Below, in pieces: positions 1 to 38,276 of a stretch of 38,276 bases of DNA; positions within the stretch are counted from its first letter, which is position 1, and each line of letters begins with the position of its first letter. Both the position numbers and the translations under genes were made by a program. The notes beneath the pieces are model-generated. The model worked only from the letters and a program-made list of their open reading frames with translations. It had not been told where the DNA came from and did no database searches. The stretch lies in IMG/VR virus record IMGVR_UViG_3300048060_000032, positions 1-38,276 of that record. The stretch is one strand, 5' to 3'. The DNA is from a virus (Duplodnaviria; Caudoviricetes).

Positions 1-168
1 GCCTTACGGCACTGCCAGAACTACCCAATATGAAGCATCTGGACTTACGGGGCTGCACCGGCCTTACGGCACTGCCAGAACTACCCAATGTGGAGTCTCT
101 GGACTTACGGGGCTGCACCGGCCTTACGGCACTGCCAGAACTACCCAATATGGAGTCTCTGGACTTAC
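1..168 (+). repeat. 60-bp tandem repeat (about 2.8 copies) encoding LRR units
   Basis: Lines starting at 1, 61 and 121 are near-identical, differing mainly in the MKH/VES/MES codons. Confidence 0.95.
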
Positions 169-188
169 CAGAACAGTTGAAAGATTAA
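3..188 (+). CDS. Leucine-rich repeat protein, C-terminal part (5' truncated by window edge)
   Basis: Frame 3 reads LTALPELPNMKHLDLRGCTG / LTALPELPNVESLDLRGCTG / LTALPELPNMESLDLPEQLKD*: 20-aa LRRs with LxxLPxLP and LDLxxC; TAA at 186-188. Not in the ORF track. Confidence 0.85.
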   Translation, partial: LTALPELPNMKHLDLRGCTGLTALPELPNVESLDLRGCTGLTALPELPNMESLDLPEQLKD

Positions 189-2475: not shown

Positions 2476-2901
2476 TTACGCTGCCTCTTCTTTTGCAAAA
2501 CCCGCAAAGGTGTCCATGGTTTTAACCAATAAAGACATTAGCATCTTTTGTTTTTTTGGGGCCAATTTCGTGACATTACCATATAACTCCCTGAGCCCCA
2601 TTAAAAAGCCCCCTGATTCTTTTTCCATTTCAGCAAACATCTGATATGTCTGGGCATCAATATTGCCCGGTGTTAAGCTCTTTGGTTTCTGTTCAACATC
2701 GGCGAATAGCTGCGAGACCGGATAGTTGATAGCGCCGCATATTTTTTCTATGTGTTCAATATTAAAAATGCTCTTTTTGTTGCCAATAATACTATTTAAA
2801 AATGTTGGACTATAACCCATTTCAACAGATAGTCTAGTTTTTTTAATATTATTTTCTTCAAGTAACTCCTTGATTCTATTTTTAATATTACCCTCTAGCA
2901 T
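2476..2901 (-). CDS. XRE-family HTH repressor (cI-like, no S24 autopeptidase domain)
   Basis: RIKELLEENNIKKTRLSVEMGYSPTFLNSII..IEKICGAINYPVSQLF is an XRE HTH pattern; divergent from a Cro-like gene. Confidence 0.8.
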   Translation of the reverse strand: MLEGNIKNRIKELLEENNIKKTRLSVEMGYSPTFLNSIIGNKKSIFNIEHIEKICGAINYPVSQLFADVEQKPKSLTPGNIDAQTYQMFAEMEKESGGFLMGLRELYGNVTKLAPKKQKMLMSLLVKTMDTFAGFAKEEAA

Positions 2902-2943: not shown

Positions 2944-2972
2944 TTGACAACATAGAGTTATGGCTATATACT
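2944..2972 (+). promoter_or_regulatory. Sigma70 early rightward promoter (PR-like) with internal CATA-N4-TATG palindrome
   Basis: TTGACA (2944-2949), 17 bp spacer, TATACT (2967-2972); CATAGAGTTATG at 2951-2962. Confidence 0.8.
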
Positions 2973-5614: not shown

Positions 5615-6499
5615 GTGTTAACGGAAGAACAGCTTATTATTAGAAAAAACGGCATCGGCGGCAGCGATGCGGCGGCGGCGGTCGGCCTCTCACCATGGAA
5701 AACGGCGCTTGAGCTATACCTTGAGAAAACCGGACAGACTGAACCGCCCGATTTTTCCGACAACCAAAAGATTGAATTCGGCAATAAACTTGAGGCCGTG
5801 ATAGCTGATACATACGCTGAACGGACAGGTTATAAGATTCGTAGAGTCAATCGGACACTGCATCATCCGGAATACGATTGGATGCTATGTCACCTTGACC
5901 GGGAAGTATTGGGGAATGGCAAGCGTGCACTCGAGTGCAAGGCAACATCTTCTTACATGGTCAGGGATTGGGGCGAAGAGGGCACAGACGAAGTGCCGGA
6001 GCAGGTACTGATTCAGTGCCAGCACAACTTAGCAGTATCCGGCAAGGATGTTATGGACGTACCTGTGTTGGTTGGAGGATATGACTTTCGCATTTATAGC
6101 GTGGAGAGAGACGAGGGATTAATAAGCAATCTGATTGATCGAGAGGCCGACTTTTGGGACAGGGTAAAGACTGTCAATCAACCCGATCCGGATTTTAATC
6201 ACAGAACGACTGAGGAGTTGTTCAAGCGCATGTATCCAGGAACTAACGGAGAAACGATAGAGCTACCCGGAGAGGCGCATAATTGGCATATCGCTATGAA
6301 TGAGGCCAAAGAGCAAGTCAAGCTGTATAAGGGCGTAATAGACGGCGCAAAAGCTCACTTGCTGCACCTTATGGGAGAAGCGGCAGTGGGTAGGTTGCCT
6401 GACGGCAATGCTTACACTCGGAAGGAAGTTAACCGAAAGGGATTCTCAGTCGAGCCGTCAAAACACATTGATTTTAGGTTTAAAAAGGGAGGTAAGTGA
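5615..6499 (+). CDS. YqaJ-family viral recombination exonuclease
   Basis: RKNGIGGSDAAA, GNKLE, CHLDR, LECK and QCQHNL motifs. Confidence 0.92.
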   Translation: MLTEEQLIIRKNGIGGSDAAAAVGLSPWKTALELYLEKTGQTEPPDFSDNQKIEFGNKLEAVIADTYAERTGYKIRRVNRTLHHPEYDWMLCHLDREVLGNGKRALECKATSSYMVRDWGEEGTDEVPEQVLIQCQHNLAVSGKDVMDVPVLVGGYDFRIYSVERDEGLISNLIDREADFWDRVKTVNQPDPDFNHRTTEELFKRMYPGTNGETIELPGEAHNWHIAMNEAKEQVKLYKGVIDGAKAHLLHLMGEAAVGRLPDGNAYTRKEVNRKGFSVEPSKHIDFRFKKGGK

Positions 6500-7602
6500 T
6501 TATGAGTAGTGATATTGCACTATCAGGAAAGAACGAGTTAGCGGTTGCCCATTCAGCGGCAACAGCAAAGTCAGAAATTGAGGCTAGCTTTACAATGGCT
6601 ATGCACCGGCCAAGAAATGTTTTAGACGCTAGAGACAAGATGTTGGAATCTAGCCAGAGGAAGGGATTTGCGGAAGCAGCTTTATACAAGAAGCCATTGG
6701 GCGGGAACAAGCATGTTGTTGGTATGTCTATCCGGGCGGCTGAGGAGCTAGCAAGGTTATGGGGTAACATCCGGGTGGTTGTACGCACTAGTCACGATGA
6801 TGACGAGAAAAGAATACTGAGTGTAACCACAATCGACCTTGAAACCAACATGGCTTTTTCCTCTGATGTTACCGTTGAAAAAATACTAGAGAGATCAAGA
6901 GTAAAGGAAGGTCAAATTGAGGTAAAGCCGTCTCGTATGAACACTTCCGGTAAGCCCGTATTTTTTGTAAGACCGACCGAAGACGAAATGACCATAAAAC
7001 AAAATGCTTTAGTTTCTAAGGCGATCAGAAACAATGTCTTGCGCTTAATCCCGGCAGACATAAAAGAAGAGATTACTATGCAAATTCAAAAGACTCTAAA
7101 GGGTCAAGTAAAAGAAAACCTGGCCGAGCAACGCAAGAAAATAGCGGATGCCTTTTCCTCTATAGGCGTAAAGCCATCGGATTTGGAGTCTTATCTAAAG
7201 CACTCTCTTGGTTCTACCTCTCCCCAAGAAATAGTTGATTTAAGGGCAACTTTTCAAGCCATTAAGGACGGAGAAGCCACTTGGGCAAGTGTTATAACTC
7301 CACCGGAAACTGATGGTGGCGATCAGGGGAAAAACAAAAAGCCCCGTACCAAAACTACTGCGGAGAAGCTTGCGGAGAAGAATAAAACCGTCCCTGTCTC
7401 CCCACAGGAACAACCCACTTTACCAACGGATGGAATTGAATCCTTGAAAGTAAAGGTGACTGAGGGTATCGGCATAATTGGCGACCAGTCGTGGGAGTGT
7501 ATCCGTGCAGAGGAAGGTTTCCCGAAGGCCTTAAACAAAATGACAGAAGAGCAGCTTAAGGTTGCTCTTAGAAGAATTGACCAGAAGGCAAGCGAAAAAT
7601 AA
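6496..7602 (+). CDS. Putative ssDNA-annealing/recombination protein
   Basis: Coupled to YqaJ; GMSIRAAEELARLWGNI core; low-complexity C-terminus. Function inferred from synteny. Confidence 0.55.
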   Translation: MIMSSDIALSGKNELAVAHSAATAKSEIEASFTMAMHRPRNVLDARDKMLESSQRKGFAEAALYKKPLGGNKHVVGMSIRAAEELARLWGNIRVVVRTSHDDDEKRILSVTTIDLETNMAFSSDVTVEKILERSRVKEGQIEVKPSRMNTSGKPVFFVRPTEDEMTIKQNALVSKAIRNNVLRLIPADIKEEITMQIQKTLKGQVKENLAEQRKKIADAFSSIGVKPSDLESYLKHSLGSTSPQEIVDLRATFQAIKDGEATWASVITPPETDGGDQGKNKKPRTKTTAEKLAEKNKTVPVSPQEQPTLPTDGIESLKVKVTEGIGIIGDQSWECIRAEEGFPKALNKMTEEQLKVALRRIDQKASEK

Positions 7603-8758: not shown

Positions 8759-9217
8759 GTGATTAAGGCCAACGCAGCACATATGCCTATACAGGATAAA
8801 TCAGTGCAATCGATTATCACCAGCCCGCCGTATTGGGGGTTGCGTGAATATAATATTCATGACGTAGAATGGCCTGACGGCTGGCGTGGTCAGCTTGGTA
8901 ATGAGCCCACCCCAAAACTTTATATCTCTCACCTGATGCTGGTCATGGCTGAATGCTGGCGGGTGCTGCGGGATGACGGTGTGTGCTTTGTGAACTTGGG
9001 CGACACTTATGGCGGTAGTGGCCAAGGCGGCTATGGTAATTGGTGGAAACATCTCCCTGCAGGGGCATTACCTAGGACAGCCAGAAGATCAAAAATAAAA
9101 CCCAAATCCATGTGTTTAATTCCAGAGAGGTTTGCGATCGGTTGCTTTGAATCTGGCTGGATAATTCGTAATAGTATAATTTGGCATAAGCCCAACGGTA
9201 TCCCAAGCAGTGTTTAA
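8759..9217 (+). pseudogene. Truncated beta-class (N4C/N6A) DNA methyltransferase
   Basis: IITSPPYWGLR, RVLRDDG..VNLGDTY and IIWHKPN present; stops before the TRD and the motif I (DPFxGSG) half; no continuation seen downstream. Confidence 0.75.
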
Positions 9218-11128: not shown

Positions 11129-12153
11129 TGGTAATAACTAAAATAGAGTATCTTGACCGCACATGGAACCCTGTCACAGGATGCTCGCATTCTGGATCGC
11201 CAGGATGTGATAATTGTTGGGCTAAGCGCATGGCAAGCAGGCTTAAGGGTAGGTGCGGTTATCCTACAGACAACCCATTCAAAGTTACATTACATCCAGA
11301 TCGTCTTGAGCAACCGCTACGATGGAAAAAGCCTCAGCGTATCGGGGTGTGCTTCATGGGTGACCTTTTTCATGAGGACGTACCGTTTGAATTTATAGAT
11401 CAAGTTATGTGTAAAGTTGCCATGAGAACACAGCATACCTTTATTATTTTAACAAAACGGCCTGAACGGATGAAAAAATACTTTTGCGATATAGCAAATA
11501 ATTCACCAAGTATGATCGATAGAATTATTAAGACTAATAATTATCCCAAAATGCATCAACAGATAATAAGATTACGTAAAGGCAAACATTTTACCAATCT
11601 CCACCTCGGCGTATCAGTAGAGAATCAGCAGACTGCCGATGAGCGCATACCGATTTTGCTACAGATACCGGCTGCGGTGAGATTTGTCAGCGCAGAGCCG
11701 TTGTTGGGGGCGCTGGATTTGAGGCGTTCGACACACATTGATTTAGCAAAACGGCAACGGTTACAGAGCCTTTCATATGTGGATGCAACACGTCTTGACC
11801 AGGTAATCGTAGGCGGCGAATCAGGCCCCGGCGCAAGGCCGATGCATCCGGCTTGGGTGCGTAGCATTAGAGACCAGTGTAAGGATGATGGCGTGTCTTT
11901 CTTTTTTAAGCAACAGGGGGCATGGAAGGAAGTGTATAGCTTCCGCTCGTTTCAGCATTGGGTAAATAAGGCATACACTCGTGTTGACAGTAAATGTATC
12001 TGCTTAGATTTAAGCGGGACTGCTTGTCGAATAGGAAAAGATTTCCGGTCTGCGAAATATCCAATCTCGGTTATGAGAAAAGTCGGCAAGACGGTCGCAG
12101 GTAGGCTACTGGACGGCGTCACACATGACGAATTACAGAAGGAGGGGGCGTGA
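11125..12153 (+). CDS. Phage Gp37/Gp68 (DUF5131) family protein
   Basis: TWNPVTGC..SPGCDNCWA, MGDLFH, LTKRPERM, GVSVENQ, SAEPLLG, VGGESG and FFFKQ motifs. Confidence 0.92.
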   Translation: MMVITKIEYLDRTWNPVTGCSHSGSPGCDNCWAKRMASRLKGRCGYPTDNPFKVTLHPDRLEQPLRWKKPQRIGVCFMGDLFHEDVPFEFIDQVMCKVAMRTQHTFIILTKRPERMKKYFCDIANNSPSMIDRIIKTNNYPKMHQQIIRLRKGKHFTNLHLGVSVENQQTADERIPILLQIPAAVRFVSAEPLLGALDLRRSTHIDLAKRQRLQSLSYVDATRLDQVIVGGESGPGARPMHPAWVRSIRDQCKDDGVSFFFKQQGAWKEVYSFRSFQHWVNKAYTRVDSKCICLDLSGTACRIGKDFRSAKYPISVMRKVGKTVAGRLLDGVTHDELQKEGA

Positions 12154-12245
12154 CCCGCTTAATCCCAACAGAGAATGACATAACCAAGCAGATAACGGCT
12201 CCTTATGAGACTATGGCAAGCTTTAGTCGCAAAATTGAGAGATGA
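12150..12245 (+). pseudogene. Duplicated, diverged 5' end of the VRR-NUC gene
   Basis: MTRLIPTENDITKQIT versus MTRLKPSENEIAKQVT at 12438; 24-bp identity 12139-12162 = 12427-12450. Confidence 0.7.
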
Positions 12246-12441
12246 AAGAACAATGAGCATACAAGAGATGATCCATTTTGTCAGTTATTTTATATTAATT
12301 ATTTTGTTTTCCTTAAAAGCCAATCGGTTTATACGCAGACACATAGGTTATTATTTTATAGGCAAAAAAATGTCATGGTGGGTAAATAATCACCCTGGCG
12401 AGGTTATCACGCTCACACCAGAATCAAAGGAGGGGGCGTGA
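12205..12441 (+). CDS. Small membrane protein
   Basis: Hydrophobic IHFVSYFILIILFSL; start uncertain. Confidence 0.45.
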   Translation: MRLWQALVAKLRDERTMSIQEMIHFVSYFILIILFSLKANRFIRRHIGYYFIGKKMSWWVNNHPGEVITLTPESKEGA

Positions 12442-12752
12442 CCCGCTTAAAACCATCAGAAAATGAAATAGCCAAACAGGTAACCGAATGGCTTGATTGG
12501 CATCATTATGCGTGGCACTATGTCCCGAACAGGGGCCGGTTTGACACTGGCCAGGACAAGAAAACCAAAGGTGCACCGGATATAGTTATTTGTGCTAATG
12601 GCTTATATGTAGCGGTAGAATTTAAGGCTCAAGGCAAAAAACAGTCAGGTGAACAAGAGGATTTTCAGCGAATGATTGAACAAAAAGGCGGCGGTATATA
12701 CGTGCTGGCTAGAGATATAAATGATTTGATTCCAGTGTTAAAAAAATATTAG
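12438..12752 (+). CDS. VRR-NUC domain endonuclease (probable Holliday junction resolvase)
   Basis: SENEI..KGAPDIV..VAVEFK..QSGEQ..GGIYVLAR. Confidence 0.9.
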   Translation: MTRLKPSENEIAKQVTEWLDWHHYAWHYVPNRGRFDTGQDKKTKGAPDIVICANGLYVAVEFKAQGKKQSGEQEDFQRMIEQKGGGIYVLARDINDLIPVLKKY

Positions 12753-12781: not shown

Positions 12782-12832
12782 CACTGCCGTTTCACGGCGG
12801 CGACAGGGGTTCAAATCCCCTTGGGGACGCCA
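12782..12832 (+). mobile_element. 3' half of tRNA-Glu(TTC): probable attP core
   Basis: Anticodon arm CTGCC-GTTTCAC-GGCGG, T-arm AGGGG-TTCAAAT-CCCCT, 3' acceptor strand GGGGAC-G-CCA; no 5' acceptor strand or D-arm upstream. Confidence 0.85.
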
Positions 12833-12841
12833 TTCTAAACG

Positions 12842-12871
12842 AAAGCCAGGAGCTACTTTCCTGGCTTTTTT
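12842..12871 (+). terminator. Rho-independent terminator after the tRNA fragment
   Basis: AAAGCCAGGA-gctactt-TCCTGGCTTT followed by a T run. Confidence 0.85.
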
Positions 12872-12918
12872 GTTTTCTGGATAAATCCCAAGGCTGTAAC
12901 TCGCTGCTATTTCGCTGC

Positions 12919-12948
12919 TTGACAAAATATAACCACCGTGTTTATACT
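12919..12948 (+). promoter_or_regulatory. Sigma70-type promoter for the lysis/structural operon
   Basis: TTGACA (12919-12924), 18 bp spacer, TATACT (12943-12948). Confidence 0.6.
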
Positions 12949-35845: not shown

Positions 35846-36529
35846 ATGCCAGAACAATTATTTGACATAGATGCTAAAGACCTGGTTAGGCTTAAAAAAT
35901 TTTATAAAAAAGCGCCTAAGCAATTTGCCCGCGCCTCCGCATCCACTTTAACGTCGTTTGCCGCTGGTACCCGCCGAAAATCACTGTTAATCGTAAACAA
36001 CAGAATGACTGTGCGGAACAAGAACTTTGTCAGCGGCGCGCTTCGGTTCAATAGAGCAAAGGGCAATGTTCCTATGGCCGCTCAGGTGGCCACGGCGGGC
36101 TCTATTAAGCGTAACCGGTTCACTGGTTGGGAAGAGCAAGAACTGGGTACACAGACTGAGAGGACGCGCACAGCAACCTTGTTTGCACGTGGAGGCGGCT
36201 CGAAACAAATACCCAGATCGCTAAGAATGGATAGGACCTCCACGTTTGATACTCCGGATAACTACGAAGGCAAGACATACGAACAGCGAACCTTCCTTAT
36301 GCTTAAGGCCAAAGCAAAAAAAGCCTTTGTAATCACGAAGCACAGGAAATTCAGAAAGGGCCTTTATAAATTCCGGGGGAAAAAGATAAAGATGGTTCAG
36401 GCATTCGATAACAGAAAACAGCCCAAACGCATCAAGTGGCTGACTATGGCAAGAAAGCTTTATTTCTCTACCACGAGCATTGATAGCGTTTGGGCTAATT
36501 CACTGAGGCGGGTGCTAAAGTTTAAGTAA
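35846..36529 (+). CDS. Basic tail completion protein (lambda gpZ-like)
   Basis: Highly basic; KQFARASASTLTSFA N-terminal helix typical of this family. Confidence 0.5.
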   Translation: MPEQLFDIDAKDLVRLKKFYKKAPKQFARASASTLTSFAAGTRRKSLLIVNNRMTVRNKNFVSGALRFNRAKGNVPMAAQVATAGSIKRNRFTGWEEQELGTQTERTRTATLFARGGGSKQIPRSLRMDRTSTFDTPDNYEGKTYEQRTFLMLKAKAKKAFVITKHRKFRKGLYKFRGKKIKMVQAFDNRKQPKRIKWLTMARKLYFSTTSIDSVWANSLRRVLKFK

Positions 36530-36689: not shown

Positions 36690-37079
36690 TTACTCACAAT
36701 TTATTTCAATGGGGTGCCTTCTAGTAGATATGTGGGTTTTCGTTTGGCTTCTTATATGTGCTAATAAACGAGATCGATATTGATCGTCAGGTTCTTTTTT
36801 TGTTCTTAACAATCCATGCTGATTACCCAAAACATCAAGACCACTTCCCTTTAAGACCAGTTTTTGTGATATTGACATTGACTGAGCAAGAATCTCTTTT
36901 TGTGCGGTTACTAATCTAGTATTTAACACTACTAACAATCTTTTCAAATGTCTCTCTTTCAATTCCACCAGACAATTCACGCGGCTAACGGTGGAAACCG
37001 ACACTCCCACAAGGGGGGCTAATTGTTCTTGGGTTAACCCCAGGCCTTCCCGTGTTTTCTTTATTTCCTCTCCAGTCAT
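36690..37079 (-). CDS. XRE HTH protein with atypical C-terminus
   Basis: AGGAG RBS then MTGEEIKKTREGLGLTQEQLAPLVGVSVSTVSR. Confidence 0.7.
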   Translation of the reverse strand: MTGEEIKKTREGLGLTQEQLAPLVGVSVSTVSRVNCLVELKERHLKRLLVVLNTRLVTAQKEILAQSMSISQKLVLKGSGLDVLGNQHGLLRTKKEPDDQYRSRLLAHIRSQTKTHISTRRHPIEINCE

Positions 37080-37156
37080 TTTGTCTCCTGTGGTTGACAT
37101 AAACAAATTCTTTGAAGCTTTTGGGCTCGTTTTTTGGGTCGATAATTCTTCCCATC

Positions 37157-37327
37157 TTACTCCCTCCATGTTGTTAACTGCTTTGCATGCTCAGTCAAGT
37201 AAGAATCTATAGCTTGCCGTATAATTTCAGTGTGCTTGACATCATCCAGGTAACCCTTCTTTCTCAGCTTTTGAAATGTCTCTTGCGAGATGTAGATTGT
37301 CATTTTTACCGTGTTTTTTTTATCCAT
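37157..37327 (-). CDS. Ribbon-helix-helix protein, 56 aa
   Basis: MDKKNTVKMTIYISQETFQKLRKKGYLDDVKHTEIIRQAIDSYLTE..; AAGAGG RBS; not in the ORF track. Confidence 0.7.
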   Translation of the reverse strand: MDKKNTVKMTIYISQETFQKLRKKGYLDDVKHTEIIRQAIDSYLTEHAKQLTTWRE

Positions 37328-37356
37328 GTTTACCTCTTTTCAATGACTGTTTACAT

Positions 37357-37467
37357 TATTGCCCGGTGTTAAGCTCTTTGGTTTCTGTTCAACATCGGCG
37401 AATAGCTGCGAGACCGGATAGTTGATAGCGCCGCTTCAGCAAACATCTGATATGTCTGGGCATCAAT
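37357..37467. repeat. Circularly permuted exact copy of repressor CDS segment 2629-2738
   Basis: 37357-37434 = 2661-2738 (78/78); 37435-37467 = 2629-2661 (33/33); same strand. Confidence 0.97.
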
Positions 37468-37477
37468 CTTATTCGGA

Positions 37478-37654
37478 TCATATCCCATGATTGTTTATAC
37501 AAACCTGCGGACGCTTGGTATTGCTTTGCTCATCATAATTTGCATAATCCCAATATCCCATACTACAATAAGTACTTCCATCATTGGGATGGTTGGCTTT
37601 ACATGGACAATCGTTACATAATCGACCATCGTCAAGTTTTATAGTTATTGTCAT
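37478..37654 (-). CDS. Small Cys-rich protein, 58 aa
   Basis: GGAGG RBS before the ATG at 37654; CNDCPC..C..C. The longer track ORF overlaps the promoter. Confidence 0.6.
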   Translation of the reverse strand: MTITIKLDDGRLCNDCPCKANHPNDGSTYCSMGYWDYANYDEQSNTKRPQVCINNHGI

Positions 37655-37708: not shown

Positions 37709-37737
37709 AGTATAACTGCATAACCGTATGCTGTCAA
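37709..37737 (-). promoter_or_regulatory. Leftward sigma70 promoter with CATA-N4-TATG palindrome
   Basis: Minus strand TTGACA-GCATACGGTTATGCAGT-TATACT (17 bp spacer). Confidence 0.8.
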
Positions 37738-37833: not shown

Positions 37834-37862
37834 TTGACAATACTGTCTTGTGTGTGTATTAT
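37834..37862 (+). promoter_or_regulatory. Sigma70 promoter
   Basis: TTGACA, 17 bp spacer, TATTAT. Confidence 0.65.
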
Positions 37863-37961
37863 TAAGTTAATTATGGTCATCGTCTTCTCAATGATGTCGC
37901 TAACCAAAGGAGGACAAAATGGATAGCTACTAAATAAATTTAAAAGATATTTTATATTAGC

Positions 37962-37993
37962 AAGCCCCATCTACATTCAGGTGGGGCTTTTTT
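37962..37993 (+). terminator. Rho-independent terminator
   Basis: AAGCCCCATCT-acattc-AGGTGGGGCTT followed by a T run. Confidence 0.85.
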
Positions 37994-38276
37994 GTTTATA
38001 TACATCAATGACTTAGCACAACACACATACTGATTTAGTAATAATACATAACAAAATTGTTGCATCGTTGTTGCACTCGCTCTCTGTGCAACCGGTTTGA
38101 CTTGACATCGTAACACATGTGTGTATATACTTGATTAAGTTACGGCAAGCAACAGCTTGACAAACATATGACAGTGTGGGCAGGCAGACATGGCAAAGAC
38201 TAAACTACGTAAGTCCTTGAAAAACAAAAGGTACTGTGGCACTTGTTATGGAAATGGAGGGATTCTAGTCGCACAG

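What the first reader, a model, noticed from the sequence alone, without database searches (positions are those of the whole stretch)
37357..37467. Exact, circularly permuted copy of 110 bp of the repressor gene, 35 kb away
Seen: the intergenic gap between the Cys-rich gene and the RHH gene holds 2661-2738 followed directly by 2629-2661, both 100% identical. The repressor segment B-A thus reappears as A-B, sharing one T at the breakpoint. The repressor reading frame is broken at the new junction, so this is not a protein duplication. A possible + strand promoter (TTTACC 37329, 17 bp, TACATT 37352) would start transcription at the first bases of the copy, giving an RNA fully antisense to repressor mRNA. 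The leftward operon would transcribe it as a sense decoy. Inference: either (i) a trans-encoded two-block antisense or decoy RNA controlling the lysis-lysogeny switch (the repressor lacks an autocleavage domain, so another induction route is needed), or (ii) the footprint of a DNA microcircle or template-switch capture. CAT flanks both ends of the source segment, but the junction lacks the AT, so simple microhomology excision does not fit exactly. An assembly or library chimera is a real alternative.
Basis: partly seen in the sequence, partly recalled or inferred. Interest (0 to 1): 0.88.

Follow-up and report, generated by a model that had tools for sequence, protein, structure and literature searches.

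The report
Phage repressor microcircle reinsertion scar
A sediment phage carries an exact 110-base piece of its own repressor gene, head and tail swapped, between two genes far away; it is likely the fresh scar of a tiny DNA circle that re-entered the genome by accident, and nothing found here shows that it regulates the repressor.

Summary
37357-37467 is exactly 2661-2738 followed by 2629-2661. It is unlikely to be a chimera: in run X1 (possibly the source sample) all three new junctions have their own contigs, the 78-nt block has double depth, and no empty-site contig is seen. Run X2, from another study, has both outer junctions but lacks the inner one. The junctions are blunt (0 and 1 nt of microhomology). 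This is the signature of circle-mediated duplication described in mammals; two-ended templated break repair fits too. The antisense idea is weak. The proposed + strand promoter scores 8/12, a chance-level match, and the RNA fold is unremarkable. A strong - strand promoter would read the copy in sense, in an operon that is likely repressor-controlled. Co-variation could not be tested, because no DNA of a close relative was found; 0 of 70 capsid-related records carry a permuted duplication. This scan noted a similar case in another phage (e1-10004176, portal gene). Verdict: a real, recent, probably accidental duplication of a kind known in eukaryotes, not found described for phages in my searches.

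The parts
37357..37434 (+). Copy of block A (= 2661-2738), 78 nt, 100% identical
   Evidence: double-depth 78-nt contig in X1 (24.3 vs 11.6-12.6)
37435..37467 (+). Copy of block B (= 2629-2661), 33 nt, 100% identical; blunt new junction at 37434|37435
   Evidence: 60-nt junction contig, depth 6.7, in X1 and not in X2
2629..2738 (-). Donor segment, 110 bp, codons 55-91 of the repressor (end of the HTH domain plus linker)
2652..2668 (.). 5-7-5 palindrome in whose loop the donor was opened (at 2661)
   Evidence: about 5.5% of window positions lie in such a loop, noticed post hoc
2476..2901 (-). HTH repressor gene, 141 aa, no peptidase domain found
2944..2972 (+). Strong sigma70-type promoter (11/12) of the divergent early operon, with CATA-N4-TATG at 2951-2962 (putative repressor operator)
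   Evidence: operator role inferred
37709..37737 (-). Strong sigma70-type promoter (11/12) of the leftward operon, with the same CATA-N4-TATG motif at 37719-37730; would transcribe the copy in sense
   Evidence: transcription inferred
37478..37654 (-). Cys-rich 58-aa gene, upstream of the insert in the leftward operon; no relatives found
37157..37327 (-). RHH (Arc-like) gene downstream of the insert
36690..37169 (-). Third gene of the leftward operon, HTH protein (start codon uncertain)
37329..37357 (+).
5615..7602 (+). YqaJ exonuclease gene and a neighbouring 368-aa gene (possible annealing protein, weak lead only); candidate recombination machinery
   Evidence: Atlas features 0.77-0.79 to Rad52/RecT/Sak clusters, below the bar

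Best explanation
The phage genome holds an exact, head-to-tail-swapped 110-bp copy of part of its repressor gene, likely left by a one-off accident in which that piece was closed into a tiny DNA circle, reopened at 2661 and joined into a 40-bp gap of an early operon, where it is likely a neutral passenger. Shown: the exact copy, the swapped order with no gap or overlap, blunt junctions, the repressor as donor, and its presence in the phage population of two samples. Inferred: (1) a copy of 2629-2738 from a sister genome had its ends joined without homology; (2) the circle was cut at 2661 and joined into the gap between the Cys-rich and RHH genes; (3) the event is recent, since no substitution has arisen; (4) the strong leftward promoter would read it in sense, inside an mRNA that is likely repressor-controlled, so it would not knock the repressor down.
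For: Exact B-A to A-B swap of one unit length. Takahashi and Innan (PMC7188851, passages) argue that two independent insertions are very unlikely to abut exactly. Microhomology of 0 nt at the closure and 1 nt at the insertion matches the 0-2 nt scars of circle-type duplications (PMC7450558, Discussion). The donor is ancestral: its C..YPV..LF motif is invariant in 16 of 16 aligned family members. Without the insert the gap is 40 nt instead of 150; 24 of 28 listed co-oriented gaps under 400 nt are 17 nt or less, and the largest is 135. Junction contigs and double depth in X1, outer junctions in X2, no empty-site joint in either. Not a clade trait: 0 of 70 related records (1.42 Mb; 11 of them 40 kb or longer) have a dispersed permuted duplication. 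Signs of a designed RNA are lacking, and the copy holds no operator-like site.
Against: No free circle was or could be observed, and two-ended templated repair gives the same sequence. CAT flanks both donor ends, yet the junction lacks the AT, so closure needs end-trimming or another blunt route. 110 bp is 10.5 helical turns, a poor length for closing double-stranded DNA, so a single-stranded circle would be easier. Neutrality is untested. The copy appears fixed in both samples, and it happens to come from the one gene (1.1% of the window) that likely controls the recipient operon. X2 lacks the inner junction contig.
Confidence: 0.5

Rival explanations
1. Two-ended templated break repair without a circle. 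A break in the gap left two ends that both paired weakly with the repressor gene at 2661. One copied 78 nt rightwards, the other about 33 nt leftwards, and the two new ends were joined bluntly. This is also an accident, and likely neutral.
For: It gives the same order and explains the homology-free inner junction directly. Donor and target agree at 9 of 20 positions around the crossover, reached by 8 of 220 rotations and strands of the unit. The phage has a YqaJ exonuclease. RecET is reported to recombine 5-13-bp homologies (PMC2327257, passage).
Against: The similarity is marginal and depends on window size (15/220 at 10 and 16 nt, 25/220 at 24, 42/220 at 30). Both ends must prime at adjacent bases with no gap or overlap, which a circle gives automatically. 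The annealing-protein call for 6496-7602 is below the bar.
Confidence: 0.24
2. A selected RNA regulator. A + strand transcript, from a weak promoter or late-operon read-through, would carry 78 + 33 nt fully complementary to repressor mRNA and would promote its cleavage; or the sense copy would soak up an antisense RNA.
For: Perfect complementarity, with predicted duplexes of -161 and -59 kcal/mol. The repressor has no autocleavage domain. The recipient operon likely shares the repressor's operator. The scan found no + strand terminator between 36529 and 37000, so read-through is possible. Lambda OOP acts on cII mRNA through RNase III (PMC12197685, passage). The copy seems fixed in two samples.
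Against: The 8/12 promoter and a 9/12 site at 37271 are at chance level (3.4 and 1.2 per kb per strand). Fold z is -1.10. No Rfam match lies over the copy. The target is mid-gene rather than the ribosome-binding site, and the swapped order adds nothing to pairing. The only strong promoter reads it in sense. 100% identity is also what a recent accident gives.
Confidence: 0.11
3. Assembly artefact: the pieces are real but wrongly phased, or the inner junction is a chimera.
For: Only 31-mer contigs could be laid, and none spans the whole insert. The inner junction contig is absent from X2 and is the lowest-depth piece in X1 (6.7 vs 8.8-12.6). X1 may be the source sample.
Against: Both outer junctions are at about genome depth in two runs of two studies, with one other difference (10231) in the 14 kb laid. 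No empty-site joint. X2 depths balance only if an inner edge of depth about 4 was dropped (missing 4.5 and 3.6), and X2 has other dropouts nearby.
Confidence: 0.07
4. A recombination switch. A crossover between the two 33-bp B copies would put the repressor's C-terminal 61 residues in frame behind a short leader under the strong leftward promoter, giving a possible dominant-negative anti-repressor.
For: The predicted product is an open 68-aa frame. X2 shows the B-to-right-flank junction without the inner junction.
Against: An in-frame join has a 1 in 3 chance. The leader ATG has no Shine-Dalgarno sequence. The crossover would split the genome into two pieces, neither with all essential modules. 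X2 depths fit the assembled structure better.
Confidence: 0.03
5. Integrase action at a secondary site, or a reverse-transcribed RNA circle.
For: The opening site is a 5-7-5 palindrome like the T-loop hairpin of the att-like tRNA fragment near 12805.
Against: Both junctions fall at one position inside the 7-nt spacer rather than at its edges, and the target has no symmetry (staggered cutting by tyrosine recombinases is recalled knowledge). No reverse transcriptase was found among the 57 window proteins scanned, though about 25% of the genome is missing.
Confidence: 0.05

Closest known systems
Duplication through a circular DNA intermediate: human cSDPs (Chicote et al. 2020, PMC7450558; abstract and Discussion read) and eccDNA-mediated duplications (Takahashi and Innan 2020, PMC7188851; first quarter of the text and passages read)
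   Same: Swapped block order in the same orientation, non-tandem position, abutting blocks, junctions with 0-2 nt of microhomology, two copies only.
   Different: Those are eukaryotic segmental duplications (over 1 kb by definition in PMC7188851); this is 110 bp in a phage. They had outgroups or many genomes; here no empty-site relative was found.
Minihomology recombination and repair of phage T4 (PMC8262927, passages read); RecET and Red short-homology recombination (PMC2327257, passages read)
   Same: Phage break repair with little homology; this phage has a YqaJ exonuclease.
   Different: The passages read report deletions at short flanking repeats and insertions of 1-5 nt. Here there is a 110-bp templated, permuted insertion with 0-1 nt of microhomology.
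Phage antisense RNAs of the lysis-lysogeny switch: lambda OOP and P22 sar (review PMC12197685, passages read); P1 C4 (seen there only as a reference title; its two-block pairing is recalled)
   Same: A transcript of the + strand would be complementary to a regulator's mRNA.
   Different: Those have defined promoters and shown effects, and target cII or anti-repressor mRNA. Here there is no credible promoter and no expression data, and the element is a duplicate of the target itself.
   Same: A short permuted self-copy in a phage, inserted in an early region.
   Different: Another genome, and a structural donor gene, which argues that the donor need not be a regulator. I could not check it.

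Membership tests
Circular-intermediate duplication | Swapped block order, same orientation, distant site | tested here: met
Circular-intermediate duplication | Blocks abut in the donor with no gap or real overlap | tested here: met
   1-nt ambiguity at 2661 only
Circular-intermediate duplication | No homology at the junctions beyond 0-2 nt | tested here: met
   closure 0 nt, insertion 1 nt
Circular-intermediate duplication | Junctions supported by sequencing data | tested here: met
   3 of 3 new junctions in X1 contigs, 2 of 3 in X2; raw reads were not available
Circular-intermediate duplication | Empty recipient site in an outgroup | tested here: inconclusive
   no relative with the locus found
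Circular-intermediate duplication | Free circular intermediate | not testable with these tools
   needs inverse PCR or circle sequencing
Phage antisense RNA (OOP, sar, C4 type) | Own promoter on the antisense strand | tested here: not met
   only 8/12 and 9/12 sites at chance density; consensus scan only
Phage antisense RNA (OOP, sar, C4 type) | Defined 3' end or stable structure | tested here: not met
   fold z -1.10; the nearest + hairpin (37578-37592) has a weak T tail
Phage antisense RNA (OOP, sar, C4 type) | Complementarity to a regulator mRNA | tested here: met
   78 + 33 nt perfect, codons 55-91
Phage antisense RNA (OOP, sar, C4 type) | Conserved, co-varying with the target in relatives | tested here: inconclusive
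   no DNA for the 64% and 48% identical repressors; 2 weak HTH hits in 70 related records have no second copy
Phage antisense RNA (OOP, sar, C4 type) | Expressed and lowers its target | not testable with these tools
   needs RNA data and a reporter
Minihomology (UvsX/RecET-type) junction | Flanking identity of 3 nt or more retained at the junction | tested here: not met
   CAT flanks both donor ends but is not retained; 0 nt at the junction
Tyrosine-integrase secondary-site event | Junctions at the edges of a shared overlap between symmetric core sites (recalled criterion) | tested here: not met
   junction mid-spacer, target not symmetric

The most novel reading that the evidence does not exclude
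The birth of a regulator caught in the act: the phage re-captured a microcircle of its own repressor gene into an operon that the repressor controls, and kept it because it feeds back on the switch, either as a perfectly matched antisense RNA made by read-through or a weak promoter, or as a repeat that can place the repressor's C-terminal domain under the early promoter as an anti-repressor.
Probability: 0.12. Interest if true: 0.8.

Novelty: new variant of a known kind. Interest (0 to 1): 0.35.

Why it matters
If the circle reading is right, phages can make and re-absorb DNA circles of about 100 bp without homology. This route of duplication is described for mammals and yeast, and I did not find it described for phages (paper searches). 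It leaves an easily searched signature and would be one concrete mechanism behind the illegitimate half of phage mosaicism. A single case with no shown function is a curiosity. It would matter much more if a survey showed many such scars, or if this one affected lysogeny.

Tried and rejected
No RNA holder listed. The inner-junction 21-22-mer gave 0 matches in metagenome and viral contigs, where the own genome may be left out. Searches for DNA of repressor relatives: viral contigs gave 1 distant HTH and then none; metagenome contigs gave none; genome contigs gave 4 false hits in a metabolic enzyme (glucose-6-phosphate isomerase-like, label recalled); annotated phages gave none. The integrase query found none, and the Cys-rich protein found only itself. 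Alignment A1 matched 0 of 5, 1 of 2 (weak) and 0 of 27 related records. Rfam found nothing over the copy. Protein-duplication reading rejected: block A has no start in the repressor frame, and the short frames over the copy (up to 39 aa) lack a Shine-Dalgarno sequence. Operator-copy reading rejected: no CATA-NNG-TTATG match within 1 mismatch in the copy. The donor is not a specially conserved island: 11 of 105 windows of 37 aa are as conserved, and the conserved motif is a protein motif. The predicted fall in RHH ribosome-site accessibility (0.88 to 0.66) is a single fold estimate and is not used. The opposite-strand joint 38/12786 was judged a likely spurious match at 85% likeness and not followed. 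The bioRxiv paper 10.64898/2026.02.14.705889 (passages) is about inversions and is unrelated. No supplementary files were read; they could hold unreported cases.

Full report
1. Observation. The 111 nt at 37357-37467 equal 2661-2738 followed by 2629-2661, letter for letter (also found by the repeat finder). Apart from the leucine-rich repeats at 1-180, no other exact repeat in the window exceeds 24 nt. The window is a linear virus record of about 75% completeness. It is a temperate, contractile-tailed phage with integrase, HTH repressor, YqaJ exonuclease, portal, capsid, sheath and baseplate genes. Terminase is absent from the record. If the genome is circular and about 51 kb (inferred from the completeness figure), copy and donor are about 16 kb apart the other way round.

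2. Is it real? Two runs hold the region: X1, possibly the source, and X2, from another study; both are kept as contigs only. In X1 block A is its own 78-nt contig at depth 24.3, against 11.6 and 12.6 for the long neighbours. The left junction lies in a 24,417-nt contig, the inner junction in a 60-nt contig (depth 6.7) and the right junction in an 839-nt contig (9.25). The native repressor junctions are present as well (8.8-11.2). No joint skips the insert, so no empty allele is visible; contigs drop rare variants. X2 differs from the phage at one site (10231) in the 14 kb laid; the differences at 12835-12888 sit in a separate, related contig. X2 has both outer junctions (depths 6.7 and 4.8) but no inner-junction contig, which counts against my reading. 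Its depths balance only if an edge of depth about 4 is missing (4.5 and 3.6), and X2 has other gaps nearby, so dropout is the likelier cause. No piece spans the whole insert, so the phasing rests on the original assembly. I put artefact at about 7%.

3. Direction and junctions. The donor is the repressor. The segment covers codons 55-91, including a C..YPV..LF motif invariant in 16 of 16 aligned family members. Removing 110 nt leaves a 40-nt gap between the Cys-rich and RHH genes instead of 150. The inner junction has no microhomology: CAT stands at both donor ends, but the AT is not kept. The outer junctions share one ambiguous T, so a target duplication is not required. Donor and target agree at 9 of 20 positions around the crossover, reached by 8 of 220 rotations and strands, and less clearly at other window sizes. 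The opening lies in the loop of a 5-7-5 palindrome; about 5.5% of positions lie in such a loop, and I noticed it post hoc.

4. Transcription context. A 9/12 site at 37271 is also at chance level: 6 sites found in the region against 5.9 in shuffles. A strong 11/12 promoter at 37737-37709 on the - strand heads the Cys-rich, RHH, HTH operon and would read the copy in the same sense as repressor mRNA. This promoter and the 11/12 promoter at 2944, next to the repressor gene, both carry CATA-NNG-TTATG one base after the -35 box. The palindrome occurs 3 times in the window against 0.75 expected, and 4 of 100 shuffles reach 3. I infer that the repressor controls the recipient operon. The copy itself has no such site. 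Neither strand of the copy folds better than shuffles (z -1.10 and 0.70), and Rfam has no match there. Read-through from the late operon is not excluded, since no + strand terminator was found between 36529 and 37000. It would come late, after the decision is made (inference).

5. Relatives. The closest repressors are 64% and 48% identical, and 12 cluster representatives reach E 1e-10, but no scan returned their DNA. As a weaker test I collected phages by capsid similarity and scanned 70 records or loci totalling 1,416,632 bases. Of these, 18 are 29 kb or longer and 11 are 40 kb or longer; the set was not de-duplicated, and many entries are fragments or loci of up to 20 kb. 0 of 70 had a dispersed permuted duplication, while the same script found the window's own. 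None shares the Cys-rich, RHH or HTH genes of the recipient operon. Two weak repressor-like genes among them have no second copy. So this is not a clade-wide trait, but its absence in close kin is unproven.

6. Mechanism. An exact one-unit swap with blunt junctions is what closure of a 110-bp piece into a circle, followed by reopening and insertion, produces; it matches the criteria of PMC7450558 and PMC7188851. Two-ended templated repair gives the same letters and cannot be told apart from one case. Together these accidental routes get about 0.75 of my belief (0.5 and 0.24). A selected RNA function gets about 0.11. In its favour: the donor gene likely controls the recipient operon, the donor makes up only 1.1% of the window, and the copy seems fixed. 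Against it: no credible promoter, no need for the permutation, and a parallel case noted by this scan with a portal gene as donor (e1-10004176, unchecked). The lack of an autocleavage domain does not demand an RNA route, because protein anti-repressors are the usual answer (recalled); the three-gene operon itself could encode one (untested). A crossover between the B copies would put the repressor's C-terminal part in frame under the leftward promoter. But it has no ribosome-binding site and would split the genome, so I rate it 0.03.

7. Literature. Ten searches listed no paper on short permuted self-duplications in phages or on a repressor-derived distant antisense copy. Most hits were seen only as listings, and the library lacks most subscription journals. 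What I read: PMC7450558, abstract and Discussion; PMC7188851, part 1 of 4 and passages; PMC12197685, PMC2327257, PMC8262927 and bioRxiv 10.64898/2026.02.14.705889, passages only. No supplements were read.

8. Verdict. Real, recent, most likely accidental. It is a new, very small, phage variant of circle-type duplication, with function not shown. Interest 0.35.

Noticed in passing
window 12782-12832 (+): 3' half of a tRNA (tRNA-Glu-like, label recalled; ARAGORN found no gene) between the nuclease and lysin genes. It is probably attP, about 11 kb from the integrase gene, and both flanks are phage genes, so the record is the unintegrated form.
   Followed up: partly
window 2951-2962 and 37719-37730: The same palindrome, CATA-N4-TATG, at the same offset in two strong promoters: a likely repressor operator linking the far leftward operon to the immunity region.
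   Followed up: partly
window 37834-37989 (+): An 11/12 promoter and a strong terminator enclose about 120 nt with a strong Shine-Dalgarno sequence and a 4-codon frame (37919-37933): a candidate small RNA or minigene. A second 11/12 promoter at 38102 shares GTGTGT boxes with it.
   Followed up: no
whole window: No terminase gene. The phrog_4688 gene (35846-36529) ends the tail operon here, whereas in G006 and G007 it stands ahead of terminase and portal.
   Followed up: partly
window 8759-9217 (+): The N6/N4 methyltransferase frame covers only positions 1-89 of the 221-position Pfam model, so it is likely truncated.
   Followed up: no
window 12806-12919: Both runs hold a second element with 12 differences over this stretch and a different continuation, at similar depth: a related mobile element that likely uses the same tRNA site.
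   Followed up: no
window 12139-12196 and 12427-12484: A 58-nt repeat (86% identical, first 24 nt exact) covering the ribosome-binding site and start of two neighbouring frames.
   Followed up: no
window 1-188 (+): Leucine-rich-repeat gene with 60-nt tandem units, cut by the record's start; high summed depth there.
   Followed up: no
window 6496-7602 (+): Widespread unnamed viral protein family next to YqaJ, with only weak feature likeness to Rad52, RecT and Sak; a candidate new annealing protein.
   Followed up: partly
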